A stretch of DNA of 64,000 nucleotides from Candidatus Omnitrophota bacterium (GCA_037146775.1 JBAWWL010000004.1:22471-86470); one strand, 5' to 3'. Positions 30,997 through 56,810 are shown, counted from the first letter of the stretch. The notes: generated by a model not told the origin, from the letters alone. A program made the numbers and translations.

Positions 30997-31959
30997 TTAC
31001 TTGTAACCCAGCGCCGCAAATAAATCTTTGGATGCGCCGAGATAGCTACTGGCTTTTATTTTCTTAAGCCAGCGTTCTTTGATATACAAGTTATCCTGAA
31101 TACGGGCATTTCCCCAACCTTGATTCTTAAACATGGGAAGTTTCTCCCAATCACTGTTAATATAGCACACGGCTTTCACGTCGTTATGTTCAATAAAATC
31201 AAAAAAAGGAACAAACCACTTCTGCCACGAATTTTCGCCATCCTGAATTCCCATCCCGCGTGGAGTTGCCTCAGCAATCATTAAAGGTTTTTTATGTTCG
31301 CGAGCGATCTGCACAATAGCTTCTCTATAGGATTCGTAACTGGTGTCAAAATATGATAGTGCTACCCAATCCACATATTCGTCTCCCGGATACCAGTCAA
31401 CGGGTGATTTTACCGGGCCGGCATACGAATGCCAGACATACGCAACATTTTGTACGCCGCGACGACGGAGAAAATCAACAATATAGCGATATGCAATAAG
31501 ATACTGTGAAGACGAATAGTGGTTGGACGGTAAGTCGAATTCATAACCGATACGTAAATATACCGGCCGATCCACCGCATTAAACCAGTTGGCCAGCTGC
31601 TCAAGCTGAACATCATACGCGCCGGTGGGCACATACATGAGCGCACCGACTAAATAAAGTCCTATTTGCAGAACAGTAGTCGGATATGCACGTGCAAAAT
31701 ACTGCGCATGCTGAGTACCGGAACCATATTCGGCTGGCTGCAAAAGGCCTTCAAGATTTTGCAAAGACGTGTAGACCATAAAACCTGCGGGAATGGTTTT
31801 AGTGGCCGTGACATATTCCCGCATGGTATTTTTGTCCTGTCCGACGATAAAAATAACTTTTTTGTCCGGCGGAACAAACTTATTGTCTTGGGCAAAAGAA
31901 CTTAAGCCGGGCCAAATAAAAAATAATGCGACGAGGATTATATACAGAATTTTCTTCAT
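30997..31959 (-). CDS. Secreted glycoside hydrolase, (beta/alpha)8 clan GH-A-like (GH26/GH113 mannanase-type)
   Basis: 320 aa. Signal peptide. The blocks LRIGYEFD and MIAEATP are candidate acid/base and nucleophile Glu residues, as in GH26-like enzymes. The family assignment is tentative. Confidence 0.45.
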   Translation of the reverse strand: MKKILYIILVALFFIWPGLSSFAQDNKFVPPDKKVIFIVGQDKNTMREYVTATKTIPAGFMVYTSLQNLEGLLQPAEYGSGTQHAQYFARAYPTTVLQIGLYLVGALMYVPTGAYDVQLEQLANWFNAVDRPVYLRIGYEFDLPSNHYSSSQYLIAYRYIVDFLRRRGVQNVAYVWHSYAGPVKSPVDWYPGDEYVDWVALSYFDTSYESYREAIVQIAREHKKPLMIAEATPRGMGIQDGENSWQKWFVPFFDFIEHNDVKAVCYINSDWEKLPMFKNQGWGNARIQDNLYIKERWLKKIKASSYLGASKDLFAALGYK

Positions 31960-33588: not shown

Positions 33589-33969
33589 TTATATTTTCGT
33601 TAATCGAACTTCAATCTGTTCGCCGAGCTGAATTTTTTTCAGTTCCACGGGTGAGATATTGGTTCTTCCGATAATGACCACCGGGCTGGCCGGAAGGGGC
33701 TTCTCGGTTATGCTGGCCGGAGTAGCGCCGAAAAACACACACAAACATTTACCCTGGCTCCAATAAGCGATATCTCCCACCTCTACCTCCATAGTTGCAC
33801 CGGCTGCGGAGGCTTTAAAACCTATCTCGAAATAAATTTCATCTCCCCAGCGCGACACCACGCCCGTGATGGGTAGGCGTTGCGCTAATTCTTTGGCTGT
33901 CAGGGTATCATTAAGTTGTGCGTCAAAAGTACAACTTTTTGTTTCAAAAACCACTCTCATCTTTTTCAC
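33589..33969 (-). CDS. Cyclophilin-like-fold protein (TM1367/DUF369-like), unknown function
   Basis: 126 aa. The resemblance in length and pattern to the cyclophilin-like family is weak (IAYWSQGKCLCVFFG). Confidence 0.3.
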   Translation of the reverse strand: MKKMRVVFETKSCTFDAQLNDTLTAKELAQRLPITGVVSRWGDEIYFEIGFKASAAGATMEVEVGDIAYWSQGKCLCVFFGATPASITEKPLPASPVVIIGRTNISPVELKKIQLGEQIEVRLTKI

Positions 33970-35096
33970 CTCCCTAAGAAGGTATCCAGTGCTTTTACAT
34001 AATCTTCCAACACCGCCACTCCCTTATAGAGATTATCTATCTTAACAGATTCGTTCTTTATGTGCGCGTTGCCTTTCGAGCCGAAACCGAACGCAAAACT
34101 TTCTATCCCTTGCTCCTGCAAAAAATTTATGACAGTCGCCCCGAACGAAGGGCTTAACCGCGAAACAATATTGTGCTTTTTCAAAACACGCCGCAAAATC
34201 GCGATTGAGGGCGTGTTCCGTTCTATCTCAATCGGCGTCTGATGAGCCAATATTTTTATTTTATATTTTATTTTCTGCGTTCGTATTATTTTCTCGATAT
34301 CGCGGATAATGGTATCTTTATGCATTGAAGGCAGATAACGGATGTCCAATTCAAAAAAAGCGTACCCGGCGACAATATTCACTTTATCCCCGCCGGAAAA
34401 TCTTCCGACATTCAGTGTGGGCTTTTTTAAAAGCGAGTGGGGCTGATACGGAAAATGGTGTGACAGGATCTGCGTCAACGCAGACACACCCTTCTCTACC
34501 GCGTTTACCCCGCGATGAGGATAAGCTCCGTGCGCTTCTTTGCCATAGAGCTCCACCCGAAGGTGCAAAAGCCCTTTTTGCGCAACTATAATGTTGAAAT
34601 CATCGGCGTCTAGCACGGCGGCATAATCGATATGTTTGAAGAATCGGGCTAAAGGAATTATTCCATGATGGCTCCCGGTTTCTTCGTCTCCGGTAAAAGC
34701 AAAAACTAAGTCAATATTTTTTAAAGTAATCTTTTCCTCTTTTAATTTTTTTATAAGATAGAGGGCCACGGCGACATTTATTTTACAATCCGTAGCGCCC
34801 CGGCCATAGAGCTTGCCGCCACGAACCGTAGCCCCTAACGGCGGGAAACGCCATTTCCCCGTGACCGGAACAGTATCGACATGAGGAGTAAAAAGAATTT
34901 TTTTCTTGGCATGCGTGGCCGGTAAAATACAGGTGAGATTCAACCGATTTTTTTTAAATTCGTATATGCGCGAAGGAACGCCGAGATATTTGAGATAGTC
35001 GCGGATAAAAAGAATAATTTGCTTTTCGCTACCCGGTGGATTCTGCGAATCTATCCTAATAAGTGTCTGCAGCAGCCTGATTAAATCCTTTTTCAT
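33966..35096 (-). CDS. M20-family metallopeptidase (ArgE/DapE-like deacylase)
   Basis: 376 aa with HVDTVP, GRGATDCK and GDEETG metal-binding motifs. Confidence 0.8.
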   Translation of the reverse strand: MKKDLIRLLQTLIRIDSQNPPGSEKQIILFIRDYLKYLGVPSRIYEFKKNRLNLTCILPATHAKKKILFTPHVDTVPVTGKWRFPPLGATVRGGKLYGRGATDCKINVAVALYLIKKLKEEKITLKNIDLVFAFTGDEETGSHHGIIPLARFFKHIDYAAVLDADDFNIIVAQKGLLHLRVELYGKEAHGAYPHRGVNAVEKGVSALTQILSHHFPYQPHSLLKKPTLNVGRFSGGDKVNIVAGYAFFELDIRYLPSMHKDTIIRDIEKIIRTQKIKYKIKILAHQTPIEIERNTPSIAILRRVLKKHNIVSRLSPSFGATVINFLQEQGIESFAFGFGSKGNAHIKNESVKIDNLYKGVAVLEDYVKALDTFLGR

Positions 35097-37053
35097 ATAG
35101 TTTTTTTAACGAAGTGCTTATAAATTCTCCCTTGAGGGGATTATAACCTTGATAGGCGATTAAAAAGTAGGCTGTAGCCGCCAGAGAACCTGTCCGGCTG
35201 CCCGAAGGCGTACGCCAGCCATGTCCAGTATCTACCGAGGCGGCTGAAGCATAAGGAAGACACGGCTCTTCCCTGCCGATCTTTGAAGGAGAAGTAATCA
35301 GCATTTTTTGCAATTCACCGAAATAGAATAGAGCCAACTTTGCATACGCATGATATTTATCTCGATTGGTATCTTTATAATAGTCGGCCATAATTTCAAA
35401 AGCTAAAATCATCTGGGCTGTCCATTCACACGATATAACCCCTCCCCTGGCAACGTGGCGAGACTTGGCAAAATCAAACCCGCGTACCGTAACGTCAGTT
35501 TCTTGACGGGGAAAAATAGTTTGAACCTCACAATTTTCTATGGCAAACTCCACGATCCTTTCCGGATTCATTTGCAGCGCTGCGAGTGCCTGCGGGCCAA
35601 ATGCCGTTATCGACCAGGTATAGGTATCGGTAGCTATTGTTGAATCTCCTTTACCCCGCATAACCGGCAACTCTTGGCTTGTGTAAGAATAACGTACAAT
35701 CCAGGACTGCACTTTTTGTGCGAGGCTACGATATTTTTCTTCTCCGGTTAACTCATAGAATAATGTAAAGAATGCAAAAGCATCCAGATTGTGTTCGGTC
35801 GCATACCAACTTTCGTTGGGCCCGCCCTTAATACCGCCTTCCTTGTCCATCATTTTTGTAAGAAAATCGGCTACGGCCTCAGCAAGAAAAATATACTTTT
35901 TACTCTTTGTTTGTTTCGTATATTGCAGACTCGCCAAGCCGATCCAAGCATTTGGCCCGCTATGCACCACGTATTCCGCCACGTCTCCGGCAGTATAATA
36001 TGCGTTATATATAGGCTCCTTATTCGCGATCTTACGTACATAAAAATCTAAAACAGCCTCTGCATTTTTTGTGTCGTGACCGATGAGAAAAGCGATTGCC
36101 GCCAATGCCTGGTCATAGGTAAAAGAAATTTTGTGCAAGTTGTTGTCGCCTTCGTAACTAAGCACAAGACCGCTTTTTATATCTTGGCGATTTTTTATCC
36201 AGCTATATACGCCTTCGAGTATCTTTTCCGAGACAGAAATCCTGGTTTTTTCTAAATCGCCGATTTCTTTCTTAAGAATACGAGTGGTCGCCTGCTGCTC
36301 CTTTTCTTTTGCTTCCAAGAATGTTCTTTCTCTGCGTAGGGCGGCGAGTTCGTTTTCCCGCTGAAAAATCTGCTCCTTTATGCTCGCTTGTTCATCCTGA
36401 TTCTTGGAGGCAGGACGAGACATTTGCTCGTGAAGACGCGCAATATTTTCCTCTATAACCTTGATGATCTCTCCAAGAGAGGCTGTTTCCTGTTTAAAAA
36501 ATAAGCCGCTTTTTTCCTGATGCGCTAATAGTGTTGTATACTGCGAACTTTTCGCAACAAGCGTAACATATTCGTTGACAAGTTCTCTATTGGCCCGAAT
36601 AAGCGCGAACGTTTTGAGCCCAAAAGAGAATGCCGAGAGAGAAAGAACAATTATGACCGTTGCAATTACCAGCGGCAGCGACTTTTTAAGGATGGCGTAA
36701 CGAAAAAGCACGCTGCGTTCTCTTTTATGCGAGGGGATAAATTCTAACCCTACGATATACTGGTTAAAATCTTTGAGTTTCTCTTGACTGGTCCAGGCAA
36801 CTTTGGCTTTTGTCGCAAGCGGTTTTTTTCTGAAAGGAACATGTATGTTAAGATGAAGCTGGGTGTTTTTGCAGTTTACTTTATCCCAGAACCCCCACCA
36901 AAGATCGTTCACCACAAGGCAGATGCCGCCCTTGCTAATATCCTGAGTAAAACCCTGGAACCACGGGGTAGTGCGCTTGCCCTGTTCGTCAATAACAAAA
37001 AATTCGACCGGCAAAACAGTGGTAATTCTAATATATTGTCTTCTGTTTTCCAT
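35056..37053 (-). CDS. PilZ domain - transmembrane - coiled-coil - (alpha/alpha)6 six-hairpin glycosidase-like domain protein
   Basis: 665 aa. N-terminal RRQYIRI ... DISKGGICL (PilZ motifs), a TM helix around residues 125-147, a coiled-coil around 150-270, and a C-terminal ~390 aa whose pattern resembles GH8 / N-acylglucosamine-epimerase-like toroid folds. Confidence 0.55.
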   Translation of the reverse strand: MENRRQYIRITTVLPVEFFVIDEQGKRTTPWFQGFTQDISKGGICLVVNDLWWGFWDKVNCKNTQLHLNIHVPFRKKPLATKAKVAWTSQEKLKDFNQYIVGLEFIPSHKRERSVLFRYAILKKSLPLVIATVIIVLSLSAFSFGLKTFALIRANRELVNEYVTLVAKSSQYTTLLAHQEKSGLFFKQETASLGEIIKVIEENIARLHEQMSRPASKNQDEQASIKEQIFQRENELAALRRERTFLEAKEKEQQATTRILKKEIGDLEKTRISVSEKILEGVYSWIKNRQDIKSGLVLSYEGDNNLHKISFTYDQALAAIAFLIGHDTKNAEAVLDFYVRKIANKEPIYNAYYTAGDVAEYVVHSGPNAWIGLASLQYTKQTKSKKYIFLAEAVADFLTKMMDKEGGIKGGPNESWYATEHNLDAFAFFTLFYELTGEEKYRSLAQKVQSWIVRYSYTSQELPVMRGKGDSTIATDTYTWSITAFGPQALAALQMNPERIVEFAIENCEVQTIFPRQETDVTVRGFDFAKSRHVARGGVISCEWTAQMILAFEIMADYYKDTNRDKYHAYAKLALFYFGELQKMLITSPSKIGREEPCLPYASAASVDTGHGWRTPSGSRTGSLAATAYFLIAYQGYNPLKGEFISTSLKKLYEKGFNQAAADTY

Positions 37054-37144: not shown

Positions 37145-37522
37145 TTAGGTTTTTTTTACCTTATGTACCTTATCAAAAAAATCGTGGAATTGGGAATGTT
37201 TACGCAGGTTGTCCAAATCAGGATCCTGCAAAATATACGGGATATCATCATAGCCGAATACTATTGCTTTCTTTAGTTCCCGCAAGGCATGGTCAATTTC
37301 GCCCGTGAGCGATAAACTGCAGGCCAGATTGTAGCGAACGACTGGGTCCTCTGGTTTGAGTTTAACTAACTTTTTATCCACCTCCAAACCTTCCTGATAA
37401 AATCCCCTACGCGTGTAAGCGTCACCTAAAGAAATAAGCGCTTGCACAAAGTTTGGTTTTTTTTCTAACAACCCTTCGTAAAATTTTATTTCAAAATCCT
37501 TTTTTCTTTTTTTCGGCATCAC
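37145..37522 (-). CDS. TPR-repeat protein
   Basis: 125 aa with a basic N-terminus and 2-3 TPR-like repeats (ALISLGDAYTRRGFYQEGL...). Confidence 0.55.
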   Translation of the reverse strand: MMPKKRKKDFEIKFYEGLLEKKPNFVQALISLGDAYTRRGFYQEGLEVDKKLVKLKPEDPVVRYNLACSLSLTGEIDHALRELKKAIVFGYDDIPYILQDPDLDNLRKHSQFHDFFDKVHKVKKT

Positions 37523-39899
37523 GAGTCATGCTCCTTTCTAAAATAGCTTCTTCCCGTAAAAGATATAATACCTCTTCCAGATGTTTTTTAAATTCTTTGT
37601 ATTCGGTAATTTCCACAAATCTTTTCTTTATGGCAAATTCCCGTTGAAAATCGAGAGTATTGCCGGACTGAGCATACGATGCGCTGAAGGTAAACCATGG
37701 AGTAATCACCTGCTGGTTCTGCGGAAGGTATTTTATCCGTAAAGTCGTGGGAAGATTTATTTTCACCCGGGAAACTTCTCTAAAAAGCCCGTTGAACTCT
37801 ATGGGATACTTACGATCTTCCTTACCAAGATATGAGGTATCAACGTCAACATCGTTAAGCGGAGGAACAATGCGTAAGTTCTGGGCGGGGTTCAAAAACT
37901 TCTTTGCTTGAAAGCGGTATTGTAAAACCGGGGTCTTGTCAAAATCATCTTCATAAATAATACGGTAATCAAACAGTTTAGAAAAAGGGTTAATCTGTGT
38001 CATTCTTCTTTGGATGTCTTCTTTGATGGTTTGCGGATGCGTATTTTTTAAGTAATAGCGCTGGAAGGCAGCAAAAAAACCTTTTGTATTCACTGTTCGC
38101 TCTATAAGAGCGTCTTCCGCTTCGTCGATCGTAATCGTCATCTCATAACTGGCTTCATTATCGCTTATCTGAGGAGTAGATACAATCTTGTATCCGTCGT
38201 CCAAAATCACTAAAACATTCCTTTCCTGGTCGTCGAGCGGCAAATCGAACAACGGTACGGTCGAAGCGGTGGCATCCATAAAAATAAGTTCATTGTTATA
38301 GTCAAGGGCGGCAATCGCATGGTTAAAATACACCGTAGGAAAATTTTCTTCGATAGGATAAATTTGCCGCGTAGGGATCAACACGGGGTATGCCTTAAGG
38401 CCGGCCTCTCGCAGCATGCCAACCAACAGTATAGCTTTATCCTTACAGTCTCCGTAGCGATTAACAAATATTTCGTCTGCCCGATGCGGCTCGTGGCCGC
38501 TTTCTCCGTACTCAACCGCTACATAACGTATATTTTTTGTGCAGAATTCGTAAATTTTTTTTGCTTTTTCTAAATCGTTTTTTGTACCTTTGGTAAGTTC
38601 CTTTACAAATGCTTTCAATTCGGAATTCAAAATTATTTTATCTTTGTATAAGTTAAACCACCAACGATAGATTTCATCCCATGATGTAAAGTTTGAAATA
38701 CTGACAGCCGGATTAATTAAAGACAGTTCGGGCATGTTCGGTTCGGGAATAATAGGCGACACCTCTTGCCATTGCCAGCTATAGATCGTTTTCCCCGGTT
38801 GCTCTTCTTTTGTCGGCTCAAGCGATATGTCTTTAGCATATTGTTCGTTGAAGAATTTTTTGCGCACGACCGATTTTTGAGGAATCGTCAGCCGAAAACG
38901 TGCTTTTGCGATCGGATAACGCTGGCGCACATCATACACAAACGCAAATTTGTCCTCTTTAATCAGTTTGGAAGAATAGATTTTGGCTTTATATTCAATA
39001 ATCGAGCCCACGTCTACCGAAGGCATGGAGATAATAAAAACTCTCGCATTACTATAGAGAGGGAAATTCAAGTATTTACTCACATCCCGGATATTGCTCT
39101 CTCCGGCATACACCATTTTACCGTCAGCGGTGATCGTACGTGCATACTCGAGCTCGACCCTCTCGTCGGTGGAATCATAATCAATCTGAACTTCCGCCAA
39201 CTCTTTACCTTTTTCTTTCAACACCTTTTGCAGAATATAGATAGTGGCGACCGAGGTATTATCTTCCTTAACCTCAATTGCCTCGTCCATTAAAAGAGTG
39301 ACTGCTTCTTCTTTATCTACACGCGAAACAAAATTCTCCTCCTGCCGTAGAAGCATTTTAATGTCCTCGGGAATCTGCTCTTCAACCTTCGTGCCAATCT
39401 TTGCGAGACGTTCATCACCCAATTGTTTAAAAGGCGGTTTTAGTTTTTTATATATCGCGACAGCCTTAGGGAAAAGGTTTTGCTCTTCCAGGGCTTTGCC
39501 ATACCAATATAGGTATTCGCTATCCTCCCGTTCTCCCACTTGCTGAAAAAGCTCAAGCGCCTGATTATAATTTTTCTCTTTGGCGTATGTTTTAGCGAGC
39601 ATGATTTTCGCGGTGGTATCGTTACTATCTTTCAGGAGAGATTTAACTTTTTGAAAATCATTAAAATTATAATAGAATTGGGCTAACCGAAGCCGTAAGG
39701 CAGTATCGCGAGGATTTTTTGCAAGAAGCACCTCATAATGGGCGGTACTTTTTTCATAGTCTTTAGAAACGGTGTCCAGCGCGGGACTACATCCGGCGCA
39801 CAGCAGCGCGAGTAGTATGCCGATACCCACACCACACGAGCCCACTATTTGTTTTCCTCGATAGCTCATAATTATACACATAATGTTTAGTGATAGCAC
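37491..39899 (-). CDS. Lipoprotein with N-terminal TPR repeats and a C-terminal DUF3857/transglutaminase-like/DUF3858 module
   Basis: 802 aa with a lipobox LLALLCAGCS and TPRs in the first ~170 aa. The transglutaminase-like Cys core is RYGDCKDKAILLVGMLREAGL. Confidence 0.65.
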   Translation of the reverse strand: MLSLNIMCIIMSYRGKQIVGSCGVGIGILLALLCAGCSPALDTVSKDYEKSTAHYEVLLAKNPRDTALRLRLAQFYYNFNDFQKVKSLLKDSNDTTAKIMLAKTYAKEKNYNQALELFQQVGEREDSEYLYWYGKALEEQNLFPKAVAIYKKLKPPFKQLGDERLAKIGTKVEEQIPEDIKMLLRQEENFVSRVDKEEAVTLLMDEAIEVKEDNTSVATIYILQKVLKEKGKELAEVQIDYDSTDERVELEYARTITADGKMVYAGESNIRDVSKYLNFPLYSNARVFIISMPSVDVGSIIEYKAKIYSSKLIKEDKFAFVYDVRQRYPIAKARFRLTIPQKSVVRKKFFNEQYAKDISLEPTKEEQPGKTIYSWQWQEVSPIIPEPNMPELSLINPAVSISNFTSWDEIYRWWFNLYKDKIILNSELKAFVKELTKGTKNDLEKAKKIYEFCTKNIRYVAVEYGESGHEPHRADEIFVNRYGDCKDKAILLVGMLREAGLKAYPVLIPTRQIYPIEENFPTVYFNHAIAALDYNNELIFMDATASTVPLFDLPLDDQERNVLVILDDGYKIVSTPQISDNEASYEMTITIDEAEDALIERTVNTKGFFAAFQRYYLKNTHPQTIKEDIQRRMTQINPFSKLFDYRIIYEDDFDKTPVLQYRFQAKKFLNPAQNLRIVPPLNDVDVDTSYLGKEDRKYPIEFNGLFREVSRVKINLPTTLRIKYLPQNQQVITPWFTFSASYAQSGNTLDFQREFAIKKRFVEITEYKEFKKHLEEVLYLLREEAILERSMTRDAEKKKKGF

Positions 39900-42183: not shown

Positions 42184-43278
42184 TCAAGCGGGACGGCCAT
42201 AGGCGTGCCAAATACGGCAGCTGCCCTCAAAAGAAACCATACAAGGACCGAGAGGATTGTCCGGCGAACAAGCATGGGCAAACTGAGGACATTGAAATGG
42301 TGTTATTTTTCCTTTTACAACCTCTGCGCAAAGACACTCTTTTTTTTGTTTTGGCTCAGTACAGGCCGCCTTTGACAATAAACGAATTGCATCAAATGTT
42401 TTATAGCTATCTCTTAGGACTAACCCGCTTTTTTTAATCTTCCCGAAGCCCCGCCACGAAGCGTCTGACACGGTAAAAACCTGATCAACAATTTTACGCG
42501 CCACAGGGTTACCTTCCGGCTGAACAACCCGGCTATATTCATTTTCCACGCAAGGTGAGTCATTTTTGAGCTGTTTTAATAACATATACATGGCTACCAC
42601 CATATCCAGCGGTTCGAAACCGCAGATCACGCAACCTTTATGGAAACGCCGAGCAATAACCCGATAGGGCTTTGTTCCGATCACTACCGAAACATGCCCC
42701 GGACAAATAAAACCGTCTACTTTTATATCGCGATCTTTACATAGCTCCTTCATAGCCGGGGGAATCAGACGGTGAGAACAAAGCGCAAACACATTTTTCA
42801 GCTTTTGTTCCCGTGCTTCTTTAATGACCAAAGCGGTCAAGGGAGCTGTTGTTTCGAAACCAACCGCCAAAAATATAGCTCTCTTTTGCGGATGTGCGCG
42901 CGCAATATCAAGAACCTGTGCGGGCGAATACACTATTTCGATATGGCCACCACGGGCACGCTCATCCTCCAAGGAAGATTGCGTTCCTTTTACCCGTATT
43001 AAATCTCCGAATGTCGCTATGATGTTACGTTTATCTCTCGCCAAAGCCACTGCCTGGTCGATAAACGTGTCCTCGGTGATACATACCGGACACCCCGGCC
43101 CGGAGAGGAGCTGAACCGAAGGCGGAACGATATTGCGCAAACCGAATCGGAAAAAAGTATAGGTATGAGTTCCGCACACTTCCATCAGCCGCACCGTTCT
43201 TTTAATGCGTAAAGCCTCTATACGGCGGATAATTTCTTTTATAGCGTGTTTATTTCTTAGAAATTTTTCGTAGAGCAT
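42184..43278 (-). CDS. hypD: [NiFe]-hydrogenase maturation factor HypD
   Basis: 364 aa with CGTH, GPGCPVC, GFETT and C-terminal CPVC motifs. Confidence 0.9.
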   Translation of the reverse strand: MLYEKFLRNKHAIKEIIRRIEALRIKRTVRLMEVCGTHTYTFFRFGLRNIVPPSVQLLSGPGCPVCITEDTFIDQAVALARDKRNIIATFGDLIRVKGTQSSLEDERARGGHIEIVYSPAQVLDIARAHPQKRAIFLAVGFETTAPLTALVIKEAREQKLKNVFALCSHRLIPPAMKELCKDRDIKVDGFICPGHVSVVIGTKPYRVIARRFHKGCVICGFEPLDMVVAMYMLLKQLKNDSPCVENEYSRVVQPEGNPVARKIVDQVFTVSDASWRGFGKIKKSGLVLRDSYKTFDAIRLLSKAACTEPKQKKECLCAEVVKGKITPFQCPQFAHACSPDNPLGPCMVSFEGSCRIWHAYGRPA

Positions 43279-43486
43279 TTTTATATTCCCTAACGTAGCG
43301 TAACGTATCTTTTACCATTTCCGGTTTAAATTTTTCTATAGCGAACCCGGCATGCACCATGACATATTCTCCTACCTGTAAATCTTTCATGAGACCAATA
43401 TTGATTTTTTTTCTAATACCGTCGGCGTCAACGATAGCACCGTCAGCTTTGATATCAACGACCTTCATTGGATATGCTAAACACAT
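43250..43486 (-). CDS. hypC: Hydrogenase maturation factor HypC/HupF
   Basis: 78 aa with the N-terminal MCLAYP (MC(L/I)(A/G)(I/V)P) motif. Confidence 0.85.
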   Translation of the reverse strand: MCLAYPMKVVDIKADGAIVDADGIRKKINIGLMKDLQVGEYVMVHAGFAIEKFKPEMVKDTLRYVREYKNALRKISKK

Positions 43487-43527
43487 TTTTTATTCCTTTT
43501 TTTAGTGTAGATAAATATACGTGTATC

Positions 43528-45843
43528 TTATATATTCTCGTTTGCCACAACTGCCTGGCCTATTGATATCGCGCCATCGTTGAAGGGTGTGCGGTGGTGC
43601 CACGCAACCGAAAACCGCGAGGCTTTTAAAAGCTTTGCGGTTAAGGCAAGCAGCAAACAATTTTGGAATACTCCCCCCGAGAGCACTACCGTATTAATCC
43701 CGGAATCATTGCGCAGACGTTGCGCCATGTTTTGTATTATTTTTGCCATGGTAAAATGAAACGCATGGGCGACTAAACGACTGTCTTCCTTGCAAGAATA
43801 CGCTCTGGCCATGGCAGAAAACACAGGCCGCCAGTCAATACGGTAACTATTATACATTCTTTTGATGACCACCGGATAACTGTGCGCTTTACCTCTATAT
43901 TGCATAGCAAGCATCTCCAAAAGTATCGCTGCCTCAGCTTCGTAAGTAATTTTATGCTTCAACCCCAAGAGGCTTGAGGCTGCATCAAACAATCTGCCCG
44001 CCGAAGACGTAACAGTATATGTTTTATTCTGAATGAGACGAATAAATATATCGACTTCTTTTTTAGTAAAAGCCTCGAGAAAACTCATGCGTGTATCAAA
44101 CAGCCTTCCCCTGAAAAGCGCATATAAAAGATAGAGCGTAACCCGGGCTGGTTCTTGAATGGCTTTATCGCTGCCAAGAAGCCCGAAATAATCAAAATAC
44201 CCTTTGCGCACAAATGTTTTTCTATCCGCAATAAAAAACTCCCCTCCCCATACAGCATTATCCATACCCAGCCCCGTCCCGTCAAAACATACTCCGATGA
44301 CCTTCTCAAAAATCCTGTTCTCAAAAAGACAGGCAGCAATATGCGCATGATGATGCTGCACGGCTATTTTTTTTACATCTTTTAGCGAAAGTGCGTACTC
44401 GCTCGACATATAACCCGAATGATAATCATACGCGACAACATGCGGCTCGAAATTAAATATTTTTTTGTAATGAGCGAGCGCGGAAAGATAATATTCGTAA
44501 TTTGCGTAGTTCTTCAGGTCTCCGATATGCGGCGAAGCAATAAGATGATTGTTCTTGACGATAGAAAAGGTGTTTTTCAGTTCTGCGCCGCAGGCAAGTA
44601 TATTTTCTTTGTTGGCACATTCCATTACTTCGGGGGTATAGCCCCGCGCCGACCTGATAATAATTTCTTTATGCGCAAAAATTCTTACAATAGAATCGTC
44701 ACAGCGCATATGAATAGGACGATTATGAACAAGAGAATAATCTGTATAATTTTTAAGACGTGCCAGTTCTCTTTCGTTGGCGGCAAGAGGAAAGTCTTTT
44801 GCATTCCCCGAAGTCATCACCAAGACAGGTGACTTCGTATACGCTCTCAGGTAATGAAAAATAAGATAGTGTAACGGCGCATAGGCACACATCACCCCTA
44901 AGTATCCTTGTCCGGGCGCAACAGCCTCTACCCAAGGGGTCTTCCTTTTGATTTTCAAAAGTACGATAGGCCGGCGAGAAGAAAACAGAAGCTTTCTTTC
45001 TTCTTGGGTGATAGCGCAGATGTTTTTTAGCGTCCGTAAGTCATCGAGCATGACCGCAAAGGGTTTGGCTGGCCTTAATTTCTTTTCTCGTAAACGCATA
45101 ACGGCGCTTATGTTTTTTGCGTCGCACCCAAGATGATATCCGCCGATACCTTTTATCGCGACTATTTTTCCTCGATAAAGTAGTTTTGCCGTTTTCATTA
45201 ATAACGCTCTGTGGGGAGCAGAAAAATTTCCGGTACCCAGCGATACTGAGCGCCTTAAAGCAAGGCCGGGACCACAGCTAAAACAGGCGTTGGGCTGGGC
45301 GTGAAACCTGCGATTGGCCGGCTGATTATATTCTTCTCTGCATTGCGCACACAAAGAAAAACTATCCATGGTGGTAACACGCCGATCGTAAGGCACGTCT
45401 TTGGTGATCGTAAAACGAGGGCCGCAATTTGTACAGTTGATAAAAGGATATAAATATCTTCTATCGTTTTTACTGAATAATTCTTCCCGGCAATCTTCGC
45501 AGATAGACAAATCATGCGATATAAACGTGAACGCATCTTTGTCTGCGCGGCTTTCCCGGATACAAAACGTGGTTTCGCCTTGGCGTGCGAGCGACTTTTG
45601 GGTTATTGTGGCGATAGAGCTCGCGGGGGGAGGGTTATTTTTCATCTCCTTTATATATGCACTAATATCTTTTCTTTCTCCCTCAACCTCTGCGACGACG
45701 CCTTGTGGGTTATTAAAAACAAAACCGCCCAGGCGAAATTTTTTAGACAGATTATAGAGGTACGGCCGAAAACCTACGCCCTGGACAATACCGTTAATGT
45801 GTAGCCTTACACGCTGTTTCATTTTTTCACTATCCAGAAACAA
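43528..45843 (-). CDS. hypF: Carbamoyltransferase HypF
   Basis: 771 aa with an acylphosphatase domain, two CxxC...CxxC zinc fingers, a YrdC domain and a Kae1-like domain. Confidence 0.9.
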   Translation of the reverse strand: MFLDSEKMKQRVRLHINGIVQGVGFRPYLYNLSKKFRLGGFVFNNPQGVVAEVEGERKDISAYIKEMKNNPPPASSIATITQKSLARQGETTFCIRESRADKDAFTFISHDLSICEDCREELFSKNDRRYLYPFINCTNCGPRFTITKDVPYDRRVTTMDSFSLCAQCREEYNQPANRRFHAQPNACFSCGPGLALRRSVSLGTGNFSAPHRALLMKTAKLLYRGKIVAIKGIGGYHLGCDAKNISAVMRLREKKLRPAKPFAVMLDDLRTLKNICAITQEERKLLFSSRRPIVLLKIKRKTPWVEAVAPGQGYLGVMCAYAPLHYLIFHYLRAYTKSPVLVMTSGNAKDFPLAANERELARLKNYTDYSLVHNRPIHMRCDDSIVRIFAHKEIIIRSARGYTPEVMECANKENILACGAELKNTFSIVKNNHLIASPHIGDLKNYANYEYYLSALAHYKKIFNFEPHVVAYDYHSGYMSSEYALSLKDVKKIAVQHHHAHIAACLFENRIFEKVIGVCFDGTGLGMDNAVWGGEFFIADRKTFVRKGYFDYFGLLGSDKAIQEPARVTLYLLYALFRGRLFDTRMSFLEAFTKKEVDIFIRLIQNKTYTVTSSAGRLFDAASSLLGLKHKITYEAEAAILLEMLAMQYRGKAHSYPVVIKRMYNSYRIDWRPVFSAMARAYSCKEDSRLVAHAFHFTMAKIIQNMAQRLRNDSGINTVVLSGGVFQNCLLLALTAKLLKASRFSVAWHHRTPFNDGAISIGQAVVANENI

Positions 45844-47649: not shown

Positions 47650-48609
47650 TTACGGTCCGGGGTGAATTATTTTGTAGTCGCGGATAAATACTATTTTTTC
47701 AATCAGAGACTGCGGGCCAGTTTTAATTAATAACTCGTCAAGATAAGGATCGGCGGAAGAAATACCTAACTCCAGTTGATACATGTTCATATTTTCTTTT
47801 TCGCCAATCCAGCGAAAATCCGCGTAAAAACTGTTGTTTCTATAAAGTTTTACCGTAGTCAGCGGTTTGTTGAGATATGCTATTATTTTGAATGGCACTT
47901 TTTCGTATGGGAAACCGTATGCGTGAAGTTTAAAATCGCTGGCGCCAGGATATGCCACAAAATGTATACTCATGTCTCCCCACTTACTGTGAACTTCCGC
48001 TTTTATGGGGATGGTATCCGACAACAGTTTAAAATAGTCTCTCACTCTTTCCCACTGATTTGCATAGGCAAGAAACAATATCATGTGGTTAAAGGCTTTT
48101 TTATAATCTTGTTTTTGAATATAATATTGAGCTAAATACCGGTGTGGTTTATAGTTTTTCCAACTCAATTGTGCGGCCCTTAACAACTCCCCTTCCGCGT
48201 GAGGATTCTCCTTTTGGGCATAATAATACCCAAGTTTTAAATGATATTCCCAATTGATAGGATTTAAATCAATGGCCTGCCTGTAAAGCCCCTCTATCTC
48301 GTCATCTTTGATTACTAAGGCATTTGCCAGGCCCTCCCCGGATGCTTGCAGCATAGTATCGGCCTTGAGAACAATATATTCAGCGTTACCATTATGGTAC
48401 GCTATCGCTTTGGTTAAAAAAGAAAGTACGGTAGTATAATAATCATTCTCCGCATAATCAAGTGCGGTTTTTTTATGGTTGACGGCTTTTTCAAAAAGGA
48501 ACATCGATGCTGTATTGGTATAAAGAAAACATGCACAGACAGCGATCGCAAGGATAACTATGCTGGATAACCAATAAAGCATTTTTGTTTCAAATATCTT
48601 TTCTCTCAT
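47650..48609 (-). CDS. Membrane-anchored TPR-like protein, unknown function
   Basis: 319 aa with an N-terminal TM helix followed by helical-repeat content. The first gene of an EPS-type operon. Confidence 0.45.
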   Translation of the reverse strand: MREKIFETKMLYWLSSIVILAIAVCACFLYTNTASMFLFEKAVNHKKTALDYAENDYYTTVLSFLTKAIAYHNGNAEYIVLKADTMLQASGEGLANALVIKDDEIEGLYRQAIDLNPINWEYHLKLGYYYAQKENPHAEGELLRAAQLSWKNYKPHRYLAQYYIQKQDYKKAFNHMILFLAYANQWERVRDYFKLLSDTIPIKAEVHSKWGDMSIHFVAYPGASDFKLHAYGFPYEKVPFKIIAYLNKPLTTVKLYRNNSFYADFRWIGEKENMNMYQLELGISSADPYLDELLIKTGPQSLIEKIVFIRDYKIIHPGP

Positions 48610-49928: not shown

Positions 49929-49937
49929 CGTTGGATA

Positions 49938-51782: not shown

Positions 51783-51785
51783 AGT

Positions 51786-54280: not shown

Positions 54281-54295
54281 AACTATTTTTGGTGA

Positions 54296-54835
54296 TTACT
54301 TTTTTAGCAAGCTGGCCGCGATAGAGAACAATAAAAATGTATGTGCCAGGCGCATTAACACAAACGAGCTTATCAGTGCCGGGATGCCAAGATTCAATTT
54401 CATGGCGAAAGCTAAAGCAACGCTCAGTATCGCCAAAAGGAAACAGGTAATTGCTACAATCCGCATACTTTTACCTCCTTTTGTTTTTTCGAACACATTA
54501 AGAATTCTTCTGTTGATAAAATCTTTCGCCTCGTCATCGACGTTAATAAATTCAACCGCAACGTCGAAACCGCCTACAAGCTTAAGTGGAATTGCGCGCA
54601 AAATCTTTCCTACTGCTTTTACCGGCTTTGGATAAGAAGGAAAGTTAATCTGCAATTCTATAAATTTCCCCGGAGTCACGGTAACATCCGAATGGAAGAG
54701 CACGCCGCCGGCCGAAATGTTTCTGATAAAACAAAGCGTGTCCTTACTTTCTTTTTCGTCCAACACCCGATATTTCACAAGATGATGTACGCCTAAGCGT
54801 ACAAATTTTCTTCTTTCTTGAGGAAAGTTACCCAT
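54296..54835 (-). CDS. PilZ domain protein with C-terminal transmembrane segments
   Basis: 179 aa with RRKFVRL and NISAGGVLF PilZ motifs. The C-terminal 60 aa are hydrophobic (two TM helices). Confidence 0.65.
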   Translation of the reverse strand: MGNFPQERRKFVRLGVHHLVKYRVLDEKESKDTLCFIRNISAGGVLFHSDVTVTPGKFIELQINFPSYPKPVKAVGKILRAIPLKLVGGFDVAVEFINVDDEAKDFINRRILNVFEKTKGGKSMRIVAITCFLLAILSVALAFAMKLNLGIPALISSFVLMRLAHTFLLFSIAASLLKK

Positions 54836-54846
54836 AGCTTTTATGC

Positions 54847-56493: not shown

Positions 56494-56762
56494 ATATAAG
56501 GTACTATAGCATGGTTTTATCCACTGTCAATAAAACACGTCTTAAACACGGTAATAGTGTTTTTCTGTCACGCATTTTTTGACGGTAAATAACTCATAGC
56601 TTCGTATAAAGCGCGTATTGCGCCTCTCGTAGGTTTTGCCTCCAGTGCGTTTTTTGTTGGTGGGGCTTGCACACATTTTAAGCGGCACAGAAGTTGAGCG
56701 TATAATTTTTTGGGGGGGGTATTTTTTAATCATAAGTCTTTGTTCACCAACCAGTTAGCCAA

Positions 56763-56791
56763 TTGACAAAAGCATAAACTAATGTTATATT
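56763..56791 (+). promoter_or_regulatory. Putative sigma70 promoter TTGACA-17 nt-TATATT for the plus-strand small gene; strong Shine-Dalgarno GAGGGGG at 56798..56804
   Basis: Seen directly. Spacing to the ATG at 56811 is consistent with a short leader. Confidence 0.35.
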
Positions 56792-56810
56792 TAATATAGA
56801 GGGGGTTATT

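What the first reader, a model, noticed from the sequence alone, without database searches (positions are those of the whole stretch)
35056..37053. PilZ receptor domain fused through a membrane helix and coiled-coil to an (alpha/alpha)6 glycosidase-like domain
The N-terminal PilZ domain has intact RxxxR and DxSxGG motifs. It is followed by one TM helix, a ~120-aa heptad-rich coiled-coil and a ~390-aa C-terminal domain whose pattern resembles six-hairpin glycoside hydrolases or epimerases. A c-di-GMP receptor directly fused to a putative polysaccharide-processing domain is the inverse logic of BcsA (glycosyltransferase + PilZ). It would place polysaccharide trimming or modification under direct c-di-GMP control, an architecture I do not recognise as characterised.
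Basis: partly seen in the sequence, partly recalled or inferred. Interest (0 to 1): 0.65.

Follow-up and report, generated by a model that had tools for sequence, protein, structure and literature searches.

The report
PilZ sensor with exported glycosidase-like domain
This gene encodes a membrane protein, conserved across the candidate phylum Omnitrophota, that joins a cytoplasmic c-di-GMP sensor (PilZ) through one membrane helix and a rigid helical hairpin to an exported sugar-enzyme-like barrel, a combination not described before that could let an intracellular signal control carbohydrate processing outside the cytoplasm.

Summary
ORF 35056-37053 (-) encodes 665 aa in four parts:
- a PilZ domain (above Pfam's cutoff, RxxxR and D-I-S-K-G-G intact);
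- one TM helix;
- two fixed-length helical arms joined by an indel-tolerant turn;
- a high-confidence (alpha/alpha)6 toroid.

The toroid belongs to no curated family. Its best PDB fold matches are MmpH, AGE-type epimerases and GH76, at TM about 0.5-0.7 and 10-15% identity. The GH76 Asp-Asp dyad is replaced by Gly-Pro. Four other carboxylates (D314, E420, D476, E543) at inner-helix N-termini are invariant even in distant paralogues.

Those paralogues are signal-peptide proteins or modules of giant Omnitrophota proteins. This supports an N-in/C-out topology.

The family occurs in 317 species-level genomes, the best 80 essentially all Omnitrophota. In 55 of 58 loci it follows an exported TPR-DUF3857-transglutaminase lipoprotein gene.

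One caveat: the motif Ser is Gly in about two thirds of orthologues.

Best reading: a c-di-GMP-responsive, inside-out regulated extracytoplasmic glycan-processing enzyme. Ligand binding, catalysis and substrate are all inferred. It is a new variant of a known kind (PilZ effector fusions). The closest architectural analogue is Alg44 and the closest logical analogue is LapD.

The parts
35056..37053 (-). Whole gene: PilZ - TM - helical hairpin - (alpha/alpha)6 toroid, 665 aa plus stop
   Evidence: ORF. Identical protein P0001 from a Candidatus Omnitrophota MAG, and 925 or more homologues. AF2 pLDDT 88.3, pTM 0.77.
36697..37047 (-). PilZ domain (residues 3-119): beta-barrel 8-105 plus the start of the C-terminal helix
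   Evidence: Pfam PF07238 at 35.5 bits, above the 22.5 cutoff. AF2 strands 8-105. Profile alignment to MotI/YpfA 5vx6.
37027..37041 (-). RxxxR motif (R5-Q-Y-I-R9)
   Evidence: R5 and R9 present in 56 of 56 aligned orthologues. Retained in all 64 species loci that matched the N-terminal pattern.
36925..36942 (-). [D/N]hSxxG motif (D38-I-S40-K-G-G43)
   Evidence: D/N in 57 of 57, I in 56 of 57, G43 in 57 of 57. Position 40 is Gly in 42, Ser in 12, Ala in 2 and Cys in 1; across species, Gly 41 and Ser 21.
36883..36909 (-). Family-specific Trp-rich block N49-D-L-W-W-G-F-W-D57 (short helix 53-59 inserted in the PilZ barrel)
   Evidence: N49, D50, L51, W52 and G54 are invariant or nearly so. Helix 53-59 in the AF2 model. 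Function unknown.
36616..36678 (-). Single transmembrane helix (residues 126-146), part of one unbroken helix 107-212
   Evidence: Kyte-Doolittle 19-mer score 2.47; a hydrophobic segment at about this position in the 57 orthologues. AF2 helix 107-212. Distance from G102 to K147 is 46 aa in 51 of 57.
36418..36615 (-). Hairpin arm 1 (residues 147-212)
   Evidence: Length 65-66 aa in all 57 orthologues. Heptad a/d positions 72% hydrophobic against 33% elsewhere.
36373..36417 (-). Turn or tip (residues 213-227), the only indel-tolerant part of the helical region
   Evidence: AF2 helix break at 213-218, where pLDDT dips to 67. All insertions in the helical region fall after residues 218 and 227. 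Lowest conservation of any segment, 0.28.
36193..36372 (-). Hairpin arm 2 (residues 228-287), running directly into the toroid
   Evidence: AF2 helix 219-287. Residues 228 to W285 span exactly 58 aa in 57 of 57 orthologues.
35059..36192 (-). (alpha/alpha)6 toroid domain (residues 288-665). It carries invariant D314, E420, D476 and E543 at positions 2-3 of inner helices 1, 3, 4 and 5, and an invariant flexible loop R466-G-K-G-D470.
   Evidence: Domain-only AF2 model: pLDDT 88.1, pTM 0.90. Foldseek: MmpH TM 0.62/0.68, cellobiose-2-epimerases about 0.6, GH76 0.52-0.59. Conservation mapping. The loop at 465-475 has pLDDT below 50.
37491..39899 (-). Linked partner gene: exported TPR - DUF3857 - transglutaminase-core - DUF3858 lipoprotein (802 aa)
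   Evidence: Pfam. Found upstream on the same strand in 55 of 58 loci with enough flank, including the ~40%-identity clade. Catalytic G-D-C motif in 55 of 55; hydrophobic leader followed by Cys in most.
37145..37522 (-). Small TPR protein (125 aa, no signal peptide) between the transglutaminase gene and the PilZ gene
   Evidence: Pfam TPR hits. NCBIfam TPR end-of-group domain at 60.5 bits. Detected in 44 of 69 loci. Overlaps the transglutaminase gene by 32 nt.
33966..35096 (-). Downstream ArgE/DapE-family M20 deacylase. Its start overlaps the end of the PilZ gene by 41 nt, so it is probably co-transcribed; a functional link is doubtful.
   Evidence: Pfam and NCBIfam. Present downstream in 45 of 73 loci. 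The same 41-nt overlap occurs in L001 and L004.

Best explanation
The gene encodes a bitopic inner-membrane protein with its N terminus inside and its C terminus outside. It most likely works as an 'inside-out' c-di-GMP effector.

**Steps shown by the data**
- A leaderless cytoplasmic PilZ beta-barrel has an intact RxxxR motif and an intact [D/N]hSxxG motif.
- The PilZ C-terminal helix continues without a break into the single TM helix and on into a 66-residue periplasmic helix.
- A short variable turn follows, then a second fixed-length helix that leads straight into an (alpha/alpha)6 toroid.
- The toroid's central face carries four carboxylates that are invariant across the whole wider family, together with many invariant Trp and Tyr residues.

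**Steps inferred**
- c-di-GMP binds the PilZ domain.
- Binding shifts or dimerises the C-terminal helix.
- The rigid, register-fixed helix-TM-hairpin unit transmits this change across the membrane.
- This alters the activity, accessibility or partner binding of the exported toroid.
- I propose the toroid is a carboxylate-based glycan-cleaving enzyme, hydrolase-like rather than a two-His epimerase. It would act on an envelope or surface glycan together with the co-encoded exported transglutaminase-like lipoprotein.
- The substrate is unknown. My best guess is the cell's own exopolysaccharide or envelope glycoconjugate.
For: - **PilZ domain.** It scores above Pfam's gathering cutoff. RxxxR is invariant; D/N, the hydrophobic residue and the final Gly of the second motif are also invariant. 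The motifs align with those of c-di-GMP-binding MotI.
- **Rigid helical link.** AF2 gives one continuous helix 107-212 that includes the TM segment, a break at 213-218, and a helix 219-287 entering the toroid. The connector, arm 1 and arm 2 have fixed lengths, and indels occur only at the turn.
- **Toroid fold.** High-confidence (alpha/alpha)6 model with only carbohydrate-active enzymes as structural neighbours.
- **Likely active site.** D314, E420, D476 and E543 are invariant in the 57 orthologues and in the 21 diverse paralogues down to 27% identity. The E420, D470..D476 and E543 contexts are found in 80 of 80 species loci. All four sit at inner-helix N-termini. The toroid is the most conserved part of the protein (0.72 against 0.64 for PilZ).
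- **Export.** Standalone paralogues carry signal peptides or lipoboxes.
- **Linked partner.** The exported transglutaminase-like lipoprotein gene lies upstream in 55 of 58 loci with its catalytic Cys motif intact.
- **c-di-GMP context.** The same window encodes a HAMP-GGDEF-type protein and a canonical small PilZ inside a Wza/Wzc/Wzy exopolysaccharide locus.
- **Precedents.** In Alg44 the PilZ C-terminal helix mediates dimerisation, and this helix has been proposed as the readout element of PilZ domains (preprint 10.1101/814665). LapD shows that c-di-GMP can signal inside-out (PMC3032553, listed).
Against: - No binding, topology or activity data exist.
- The c-di-GMP-contacting Ser is Gly in about two thirds of orthologues, so affinity may be weak or lost in much of the family.
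- The charge bias around the TM helix does not indicate orientation (3.4 against 3.9 K+R).
- The toroid reaches no curated CAZy-type family threshold and lacks the GH76 dyad.
- The top Foldseek E-values go to epimerases and isomerases, not hydrolases.
- The hairpin geometry is inferred from secondary structure and the indel pattern, not measured.
- No glycosyltransferase or synthase is adjacent. The exopolysaccharide locus is 10-12 kb away, with housekeeping genes in between.
- The window's GGDEF protein has GGDDF instead of GG[D/E]EF.
Confidence: 0.45

Rival explanations
1. The toroid is catalytically active but is a polymer-level or oligosaccharide epimerase/isomerase, using AGE-like or glucuronyl-C5-epimerase-like chemistry. 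c-di-GMP would then control modification of an exported glycan rather than its cleavage.
For: - The best Foldseek E-values go to glucose- and cellobiose-2-epimerases, mannose isomerase and YihS.
- Within the PilZ-type clade, H364, H421, H611, R466 and R614 are invariant.
- A few orthologues carry precomputed PF06662 (C5-epimerase C-terminal) hits, and paralogues give weak GlcNAc-2-epimerase hits.
Against: - The histidines are conserved in only 52-67% of the diverse toroid set, while the four carboxylates are at 100%.
- By TM-score the best match is a hydrolase, MmpH, at 0.62/0.68.
- From general knowledge, characterised AGE enzymes are soluble cytoplasmic enzymes acting on free sugars, whereas this family is exported.
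Confidence: 0.2
2. The toroid is a non-catalytic glycan-binding or scaffold module (a pseudo-enzyme). The protein would be a c-di-GMP-controlled anchor or adaptor, for example positioning or regulating the transglutaminase-like lipoprotein or tethering an envelope polymer.
For: - No curated enzyme family is matched above threshold, and the catalytic dyad of the nearest sequence family (GH76) is absent.
- The tight linkage with the transglutaminase-like gene would fit a regulator-enzyme pair, by analogy with LapD-LapG.
Against: - Four carboxylates at the canonical active-site face are invariant down to 27% identity, including in standalone secreted paralogues.
- An invariant flexible loop (R466-D470) precedes inner helix 4.
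- The toroid is the most conserved region of the protein.
Confidence: 0.17
3. The PilZ domain no longer senses c-di-GMP, at least in most orthologues. It would serve as a cytoplasmic protein-interaction or assembly domain, and the exported toroid would not be under second-messenger control.
For: - The Ser that contacts c-di-GMP (Ser37 in MapZ; preprint 10.1101/814665) is Gly in 64-74% of orthologues.
- About a quarter of orthologues fall below the precomputed Pfam PilZ hit threshold.
- A family-specific Trp-rich insertion (N49-D57) is more conserved than the Ser.
- Non-binding PilZ domains are known.
Against: - RxxxR, D/N, the hydrophobic residue and the final Gly are essentially invariant in 57 sequences that share only 46-58% identity with the window protein.
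- This window's protein has the full canonical motif.
- The preprint states that PilZ domains in fusion proteins invariably retain binding, and that PA2989 binds despite a substituted D/N.
Confidence: 0.13
4. The hydrophobic helix is not membrane-spanning, or the topology is otherwise such that the toroid is cytoplasmic. The protein would then be a membrane-associated cytoplasmic sugar-metabolising enzyme regulated allosterically by c-di-GMP.
For: - The charge distribution around the helix is uninformative.
- The nearest structural relatives by E-value are cytoplasmic sugar epimerases.
Against: - A 21-residue segment with KD 2.47 is conserved in position across the family, and it is the only hydrophobic segment in this protein.
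- A leaderless N-terminal PilZ followed by one TM helix implies that the C terminus is outside.
- Standalone paralogues of the toroid nearly all carry signal peptides or lipoboxes.
- The giant-protein paralogues are reported as predicted extracellular (preprint 10.1101/2023.11.21.568195).
Confidence: 0.05

Closest known systems
Alg44 (Pseudomonas alginate co-polymerase: N-terminal PilZ, single TM, periplasmic HlyD/MFP-like domain)
   Same: - The order of parts and the implied topology match: a cytoplasmic N-terminal canonical PilZ with a C-terminal helix, one TM helix, and a periplasmic region that begins with long helices.
- In both, c-di-GMP sensed in the cytoplasm must act on a process outside the inner membrane (preprint 10.1101/814665).
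   Different: - No HlyD/MFP domain is detected here.
- The periplasmic output is an (alpha/alpha)6 enzyme-like toroid.
- No Alg8-like GT2 synthase is adjacent; the conserved neighbour is a transglutaminase-like lipoprotein.
BcsA (cellulose synthase, GT2 with a C-terminal PilZ) and its companion periplasmic BcsZ (GH8 endoglucanase)
   Same: - A PilZ domain is fused to a carbohydrate-active module.
- BcsZ is an (alpha/alpha)6 periplasmic glycanase and appears among the fold matches (3qxq, E 2.6e-6).
   Different: - In BcsA, PilZ gates a cytoplasmic glycosyltransferase on the same side of the membrane.
- Here the PilZ domain and the sugar-active domain lie on opposite sides of the membrane, and the enzyme-like domain is of the degradative or modifying fold.
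- BcsZ itself has no PilZ domain.
LapD (c-di-GMP inside-out receptor that controls the periplasmic protease LapG)
   Same: The logic matches. Cytoplasmic c-di-GMP binding is relayed through helical transmembrane elements to a periplasmic output that involves a cysteine protease of the transglutaminase-like/BTLCP type (PMC3032553 and PMC3032545, listed; that LapG belongs to this fold class is from general knowledge).
   Different: - LapD senses through a degenerate EAL domain and relays through a HAMP domain, and its periplasmic domain is a non-enzymatic binding module.
- Here the sensor is PilZ, there is no HAMP domain, and the output is an enzyme-like toroid.
- The relation to the neighbouring transglutaminase-like protein is untested.
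Six-hairpin (alpha/alpha)6 enzymes: MmpH (7qsj), GH76 alpha-1,6-mannanases, AGE-superfamily 2-epimerases/isomerases
   Same: - Same fold: TM 0.62/0.68 to MmpH, about 0.6 to cellobiose-2-epimerases, 0.52-0.59 to GH76.
- A weak sequence-profile link to GH76-fold proteins (4mu9, E 1.2e-4).
- An acidic, aromatic-rich central face.
   Different: - Identity is only 10-15%, and every curated family scores below threshold.
- The GH76 Asp-Asp dyad is replaced by G366-P367.
- The AGE-type histidines are not conserved across the family.
- The relative positions of D314 and E543 resemble MmpH's Asp47 and Glu262 (PMC9883506). This is a lead only and was not tested by superposition.
Toroid modules of Omnitrophota giant proteins ('Archaeovorins')
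   Same: - The domain family is homologous: 30-37% identity, E 1e-20 to 1e-45, in proteins of 3,000-7,900 aa, with several matched stretches in one 5,959-aa protein.
- The preprint reports structure-only domains in these giants that resemble 5ZHB and 4C1S. Both PDB entries are among my matches.
   Different: Those are modules of huge, reportedly extracellular multi-enzyme proteins. This one is a single toroid tethered to the inner membrane and coupled to a PilZ domain.

Membership tests
PilZ domain (PF07238), canonical c-di-GMP-binding type | Pfam profile score above the gathering threshold | tested here: met
   35.5 bits against a cutoff of 22.5, residues 3-119.
PilZ domain (PF07238), canonical c-di-GMP-binding type | RxxxR motif at the N-terminal edge of the barrel | tested here: met
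   R5-Q-Y-I-R9. Both Arg present in 56 of 56 aligned orthologues.
PilZ domain (PF07238), canonical c-di-GMP-binding type | [D/N]hSxxG motif | tested here: met
   D38-I-S40-K-G-G43 in this protein. In the family, Ser is replaced by Gly in 42 of 57 orthologues and 41 of 64 species, while D/N, the hydrophobic residue and the final Gly are kept.
PilZ domain (PF07238), canonical c-di-GMP-binding type | [quoted passage not shown] | tested here: met
   AF2 strands between residues 8 and 105, then a helix from 107. An extra short helix at 53-59 is specific to this family.
PilZ domain (PF07238), canonical c-di-GMP-binding type | Actual binding of c-di-GMP | not testable with these tools
   Needs DRaCALA, ITC or MST on residues 1-120.
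GH76 (alpha-1,6-mannanase, PF03663) | Profile score above the gathering threshold | tested here: not met
   21.4 bits for the full protein and 24.0 bits for the domain alone, against a cutoff of 25.9. Only 6 of 21 diverse family members give any hit at E up to 0.1.
GH76 (alpha-1,6-mannanase, PF03663) | Adjacent catalytic Asp-Asp dyad (for example D136/D137 in Salegentibacter GH76A, or 'YYDDNIW' in BT_3782) | tested here: not met
   The dyad aligns to S365/G366-P367. G366 is 100% conserved, and none of the 57 PilZ-type orthologues is acidic at 365-367.
GH76 (alpha-1,6-mannanase, PF03663) | (alpha/alpha)6 barrel fold | tested here: met
   Foldseek TM 0.52-0.59 to several GH76 structures.
AGE superfamily (N-acylglucosamine / cellobiose 2-epimerases, PF07221) | Profile match | tested here: not met
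   No PF07221 hit for this protein at E up to 1. One of 21 diverse relatives hits at 6.5e-5.
AGE superfamily (N-acylglucosamine / cellobiose 2-epimerases, PF07221) | Pair of catalytic histidines at the barrel centre (from general knowledge of the family) | tested here: inconclusive
   H364, H421 and H611 are invariant in the PilZ-type clade but only 52-67% conserved in the wider toroid family. Structural equivalence could not be checked because no coordinates or structural alignments were available.
Alg44-type PilZ co-polymerase | N-terminal PilZ, single TM helix, periplasmic helical region | tested here: met
Alg44-type PilZ co-polymerase | Periplasmic HlyD/membrane-fusion-protein domain | tested here: not met
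   No HlyD-family hit in Pfam or NCBIfam at E up to 1. The periplasmic globular domain is an (alpha/alpha)6 toroid.
Alg44-type PilZ co-polymerase | Genomic association with a GT2 polysaccharide synthase (Alg8-like) | tested here: not met
   The conserved neighbours are the DUF3857-transglutaminase gene, the small TPR gene and the M20 gene.
LapD-type inside-out c-di-GMP receptor | Degenerate GGDEF-EAL sensor with a HAMP relay | tested here: not met
   No HAMP, GGDEF or EAL domain in this protein. The analogy is in logic only.

The most novel reading that the evidence does not exclude
The protein would be the first example of a PilZ receptor that gates an extracytoplasmic carbohydrate-active enzyme across the membrane.
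- c-di-GMP binding would be relayed through a rigid PilZ-helix/TM/hairpin unit to switch an exported, previously unclassified carboxylate-type (alpha/alpha)6 glycanase.
- That glycanase would work together with a co-encoded transglutaminase-like lipoprotein.
- Because the toroid is a paralogue of modules in the giant, predation-linked proteins of Omnitrophota, the module could place remodelling of the cell surface, or attack on a host or prey cell wall, under second-messenger control. It would be a phylum-wide core function of these ultra-small, host-dependent bacteria.
Probability: 0.22. Interest if true: 0.8.

Novelty: new variant of a known kind. Interest (0 to 1): 0.6.

Why it matters
Known c-di-GMP control of polysaccharides acts on synthesis or export (BcsA, Alg44, PelD, PgaCD). 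The one well-studied inside-out route, LapD, controls a protease.

A PilZ domain hard-wired through the membrane to an exported glycosidase-like domain would add a new output class: extracytoplasmic glycan processing. It would also offer a structurally simple system, one chain and one TM helix, for studying transmembrane relay by PilZ.

It would give a first functional handle on three things:
- an uncharacterised (alpha/alpha)6 family that is expanded in Omnitrophota, including in their giant proteins;
- the widespread but unstudied DUF3857-transglutaminase lipoproteins;
- c-di-GMP signalling in an uncultivated, host-dependent phylum.

Tried and rejected
- **Positive-inside rule.** It is uninformative here: 3.4 against 3.9 K+R in 15-aa flanks. 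The topology argument rests on other evidence.
- **Sequence searches against PDB.** With the full-length protein or profile, coiled-coil noise dominated. A toroid-only profile gave only a weak GH76-fold link.
- **NCBIfam.** No family is recognised for this protein.
- **Motif scan for GGDEF/EAL/HD-GYP in the window.** The only hit, 'EALLR', lies in DXP synthase and is a false alarm. The real GGDEF-domain protein was missed because its signature is GGDDF.
- **Promoter and terminator scan of 33.4-40.4 kb.** Counts are no higher than in shuffles, so it says nothing about operon structure.
- **Literature.** Nothing on DUF3857-transglutaminase function or on the Omnitrophota envelope.
- **M20 deacylase and aminotransferase as a mDAP/peptidoglycan-precursor link.** Rejected. 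Both match only generic or sub-threshold models. Their synteny is lost in the divergent clade, whereas the transglutaminase link persists.
- **GH76 membership.** Rejected, because the catalytic dyad is absent.
- **Partner domains in paralogues.** A Pfam scan found almost nothing; these proteins are largely unannotated.

Full report

Yes. The minus-strand ORF 35056-37053 encodes 665 aa.

- Pfam places a PilZ domain at residues 3-119, at 35.5 bits against a gathering cutoff of 22.5.
- R5-x-x-x-R9 and D38-I-S40-K-G-G43 are present. In a profile alignment they line up with the RRQYVR and N-I-S-A-G-G motifs of the c-di-GMP-binding PilZ protein MotI/YpfA (5vx6).
- There is one strongly hydrophobic segment, residues 126-146, with a Kyte-Doolittle 19-mer score of 2.47. 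It is the only such segment in this protein, and a comparable segment sits at about the same position in the orthologues.
- An AlphaFold2 model built on 57 orthologues is confident (mean pLDDT 88.3, pTM 0.77). It shows a beta-barrel at 8-105, one unbroken helix at 107-212 that contains the TM segment, a break at 213-218, a second helix at 219-287, and then twelve alternating helices.
- A domain-only model of residues 288-665 has pTM 0.90.
- Foldseek against the PDB returns more than 130 matches at E<1e-3, all to (alpha/alpha)6 carbohydrate-active enzymes.

The gene is clearly under selection. At least 925 homologues were found, the best 120 nearly all full-length at 43-58% identity. In addition, 317 species-representative genomes encode a relative.

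**2. Who has it, and what sits next to it?**

All named hits are Candidatus Omnitrophota. The 'uncultured Planctomycetia' titles are automated MAG labels on the same family.

Gene order around it is conserved in genomes whose copies are only about 47-55% identical: AsnC, aminotransferase, DUF1805, TPR-DUF3857-transglutaminase-DUF3858 (about 790 aa), a small TPR protein (about 125 aa), the PilZ protein, then an M20 deacylase.

I quantified this over 80 species-level loci, counting only loci with enough flanking sequence.

| Neighbour | Loci with the gene / loci with enough flank |
|---|---|
| TPR-DUF3857-transglutaminase (upstream) | 55 / 58 |
| Small TPR protein | 44 / 69 |
| M20 deacylase (downstream) | 45 / 73 |
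| AsnC | 36 / 51 |
| Aminotransferase | 38 / 52 |

- The transglutaminase link persists in the divergent clade (about 40% identity), where the housekeeping synteny is gone.
- All 55 complete partner proteins keep the G-D-C catalytic-cysteine motif, and most begin with a hydrophobic leader followed by Cys. That makes them exported lipoproteins.
- The small TPR and M20 proteins have no export signal.
- The M20 protein is a generic ArgE/DapE-family deacylase, just below its family cutoff.
- The PilZ gene's end overlaps the M20 start by 41 nt here and also in L001 and L004. The transglutaminase and TPR genes overlap by 32 nt.

Co-transcription is therefore likely. Only the transglutaminase link looks functionally meaningful.

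**3. The PilZ domain in the family**

- R5 and R9 are present in 56 of 56 aligned orthologues.
- D/N at position 38 is present in 57 of 57, Ile39 in 56 of 57, and Gly43 in 57 of 57.
- Position 40, the canonical Ser, is Gly in 42, Ser in 12, Ala in 2 and Cys in 1.
- Across 64 species loci with a readable N terminus, Gly occurs in 41 and Ser in 21. Ser dominates the divergent clade (13 of 19) and Gly the closer clade (36 of 45). Ser is probably ancestral.

The motif is defined as [D/N]hSxxG, with the Ser listed among the c-di-GMP-binding residues (Ser37 in MapZ). PilZ domains in fusion proteins are reported to retain binding, and PA2989 binds despite a substituted first residue (preprint 10.1101/814665).

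I conclude that this window's protein has a fully canonical site. Binding in the Gly-type majority is plausible but uncertain.

A family-specific Trp-rich block (N49-D-L-W-W-G-F-W-D57, forming a short helix) is nearly invariant and unexplained.

**4. The transmembrane link**

- The PilZ C-terminal helix, the TM helix and the first periplasmic helix form one continuous helix in the model.
- The distance from G102 to K147 is 46 residues in 51 of 57 orthologues. Arm 1 (147-212) is 65-66 residues in all 57. Residues 228 to W285 span exactly 58 residues in all 57.
- Every insertion in this region falls after residues 218 and 227, which is at the AF2 helix break and at the least conserved segment.
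- Both arms show heptad periodicity.

This is the signature of a register-sensitive helical hairpin with a tolerant tip, rather than a flexible stalk. It would place the toroid back near the outer face of the inner membrane, with a spike of about 10 nm projecting into the periplasm.

The hairpin is therefore inferred.

**5. Topology**

The charge bias is uninformative. The argument rests on three points:
- a leaderless N-terminal PilZ, whose ligand is cytoplasmic, followed by a single TM helix;
- standalone paralogues of the toroid that almost all start with signal peptides or lipoboxes, for example P0164, P0165, P0188, P0192, P0195, P0197, P0227, and P0202 and P0247 with lipoboxes;
- giant-protein paralogues that are reported as predicted extracellular.

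The window also encodes a Wza-like outer-membrane polysaccharide exporter. That indicates a two-membrane envelope, so 'outside' here means the periplasm.

**6. What is the toroid?**

No curated family is reached.
- GH76 scores 21.4 bits on the full protein and 24.0 bits on the domain alone, against a cutoff of 25.9. GH127 and GH88 score lower.
- NCBIfam finds nothing.

By fold, identity is 10-15% throughout.

| PDB family | TM-score (by query / by target) |
|---|---|
| MmpH endomannosidase (7qsj) | 0.62 / 0.68 |
| Cellobiose-2-epimerases | about 0.6 |
| GH76 mannanases | 0.52-0.59 |

An exhaustive search with the domain alone found 812 cluster representatives at E<1e-3.
- The first 55 or so are mostly PilZ-type proteins.
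- Beyond them are standalone secreted proteins of 370-450 aa, mid-size multidomain proteins, and giant proteins of 3,000-7,900 aa. One 5,959-aa Omnitrophota protein has several matched stretches.
- Most of those that carry an organism name are also from Omnitrophota.
- The giant-gene preprint (10.1101/2023.11.21.568195) reports structure-only domains in such giants resembling 5ZHB and 4C1S. Both entries are among my matches.

A toroid-only profile (A2, 21 sequences down to 27% identity) gives its best PDB sequence hit to the GH76-fold protein BT_3782 (4mu9, E 1.2e-4).
- In that alignment the GH76 catalytic Asp-Asp ('YYDDNIW') falls on 'H-S-G366-P367-N-A-W370'.
- G366 is invariant, and none of the 57 PilZ-type orthologues is acidic at these positions.
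- GH76 chemistry is therefore excluded.

Instead, D314, E420, D476 and E543 are invariant in both the orthologue alignment and the diverse alignment.
- Each sits at position 2-3 of an inner helix (inner helices 1, 3, 4 and 5), the canonical active-site face of six-hairpin enzymes.
- D470, D527, W370, W613, Y313 and Y601 are invariant or nearly so.
- An invariant loop, R466-G-K-G-D470, is the only low-confidence stretch inside the domain and may be a mobile lid.
- The histidines H364, H421 and H611 are invariant only within the PilZ clade, at 52-67% in the diverse set. That argues against two-His AGE-type chemistry for the family as a whole.
- The toroid is the most conserved part of the protein (0.72).

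In MmpH the acid Asp47 lies in the first hairpin and the base Glu262 late in the barrel (PMC9883506). The relative positions of D314 and E543 are similar, but I could not test this by superposition.

**7. c-di-GMP context**

The window itself encodes two relevant proteins:
- a HAMP-GGDEF-domain protein (57125-58429) whose signature reads GGDDF, so cyclase activity is uncertain;
- a small membrane-anchored canonical PilZ protein (54296-54835).

Both lie inside a Wza/Wzc/Wzy-type exopolysaccharide locus at about 47.6-63.9 kb. In the complete genome CP070684, a Wzy_C gene lies 7 kb upstream of the orthologue, with the same genes in between. This loose proximity is a lead for the substrate, not evidence.

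**8. Most likely mechanism**

Shown:
- a canonical PilZ site;
- a rigid fixed-length helical connection across one TM helix;
- an exported-type six-hairpin domain with an invariant acidic and aromatic pocket;
- an obligate neighbouring exported transglutaminase-like lipoprotein.

Inferred:
- c-di-GMP binding repositions or dimerises the PilZ C-terminal helix. In Alg44 these helices mediate PilZ dimerisation, and the helix has been proposed as the readout element.
- The change travels through the TM helix and hairpin to the toroid, which would be a carboxylate-type glycan-cleaving enzyme.
- The toroid would act on an envelope or surface glycan or glycoconjugate together with the transglutaminase-like enzyme.

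I put this at about 0.45. The rivals are an epimerase rather than a hydrolase (0.20), a non-catalytic binder or scaffold (0.17), a c-di-GMP-blind PilZ (0.13), and a cytoplasmic toroid (0.05).

**9. Comparison with what is known**

- **Alg44** is closest in architecture (N-terminal PilZ, one TM helix, periplasmic helical region). This protein has no HlyD/MFP domain and no adjacent GT2 synthase, so it is not a member.
- **LapD** is closest in logic (inside-out c-di-GMP signalling), with none of LapD's domains.
- **BcsA** couples PilZ to a carbohydrate-active domain, but on the same side of the membrane and for synthesis.
- **The toroid** is a divergent, unclassified member of the six-hairpin superfamily. 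It fails the GH76 membership test on both score and catalytic dyad, and it fails the AGE profile test. The AGE His-pair test is inconclusive.

I found no description of this architecture, either in the PilZ-architecture survey or in targeted searches.

**10. Verdict**

This is a new variant of a known kind: a PilZ effector fusion with an unprecedented extracytoplasmic enzyme-like output, conserved phylum-wide. I score interest at 0.6. Everything functional remains to be tested, but the system is simple and the tests are direct.

Noticed in passing
window 47650-63932 (- strand): A Wzx/Wzy-type exopolysaccharide locus. It contains Wzy_C (48606-49928), a Wzz/GNVR/AAA_31 Wzc-like gene (49938-51782), a Poly_export+SLBB Wza-like gene (51786-52841), a weak PEP-CTERM-associated outer-membrane-protein-like gene (52841-54280), a large TPR protein (54847-56493), Bac_transf (59663-60259) and an NAD epimerase/dehydratase (60587-61621). 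c-di-GMP parts are embedded in it. A Wzy_C gene also lies 7 kb upstream of the orthologue in CP070684 (L001).
   Followed up: partly
window 57125-58429 (-): A HAMP-GGDEF-domain membrane protein whose signature motif reads GGDDF instead of GG[D/E]EF. The Pfam match covers only profile positions 5-107 of 161. Its cyclase activity is therefore uncertain.
   Followed up: partly
window 54296-54835 (-): A second, small PilZ protein (179 aa) with canonical R9xxxR13 and N-I-S-A-G-G motifs and C-terminal hydrophobic helices, sitting inside the exopolysaccharide export locus. It is probably a c-di-GMP receptor for that system.
   Followed up: partly
window 36883-36909 (-), residues 49-57 of the PilZ protein: A nearly invariant Trp-rich block, N-D-L-W-W-G-F-W-D, forms a short helix inserted in the PilZ barrel. 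It is more conserved than the motif Ser and is not part of the canonical PilZ description. It could be a membrane-interface or partner-binding surface.
   Followed up: partly
window 33589-33969 (-): A cyclophilin-like (PF04126) gene lies between the M20 and Era genes in this genome only. It was not found at that position in any of 70 related loci, so it is probably a lineage-specific insertion.
   Followed up: partly
L023 (JAIWAR010000068.1, 5.2 kb): A contig carrying the transglutaminase, PilZ-toroid and Era gene order typical of Omnitrophota is binned in a 'Methanosarcinales archaeon' MAG. It is probably mis-binned. This is worth noting because Omnitrophota are reported to attach to and prey on Methanosaeta.
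   Followed up: no
P0235 (5959 aa), P0248 (7886 aa), P0269 (7623 aa), P0181, P0184, P0200 and others: Giant proteins carry one or several copies of the same unclassified toroid family at 30-37% identity. P0235 is from Omnitrophota, P0184 is labelled as a Deltaproteobacteria MAG, and the rest are unnamed or were not looked up. Pfam recognises no domain in the paralogues that were scanned, P0184 (3307 aa), P0182 (1498 aa) and P0174 (1009 aa).
   Followed up: partly
P0177 (871 aa), P0179 (967 aa): Mid-size toroid paralogues with weak MgtE_N/FliG-like matches N-terminal to the toroid. This is another unexplained architecture of the family. One cluster member is labelled as a Thermoplasmata archaeon MAG.
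   Followed up: no
window 30997-31959 (-): A secreted protein (N-terminal signal peptide) with a partial GH26 match (32.5 bits), four genes downstream of the PilZ gene. It is not part of the conserved block.
   Followed up: no
window 42184-45843 (-): Two ORFs whose sequences look like the hydrogenase maturation proteins HypD (42184-43278) and HypF (43528-45843). I judged this by eye from sequence motifs and did not scan them. They lie between RNase T and AsnC, where the related genomes L001, L002 and L004 have no such genes.
   Followed up: no
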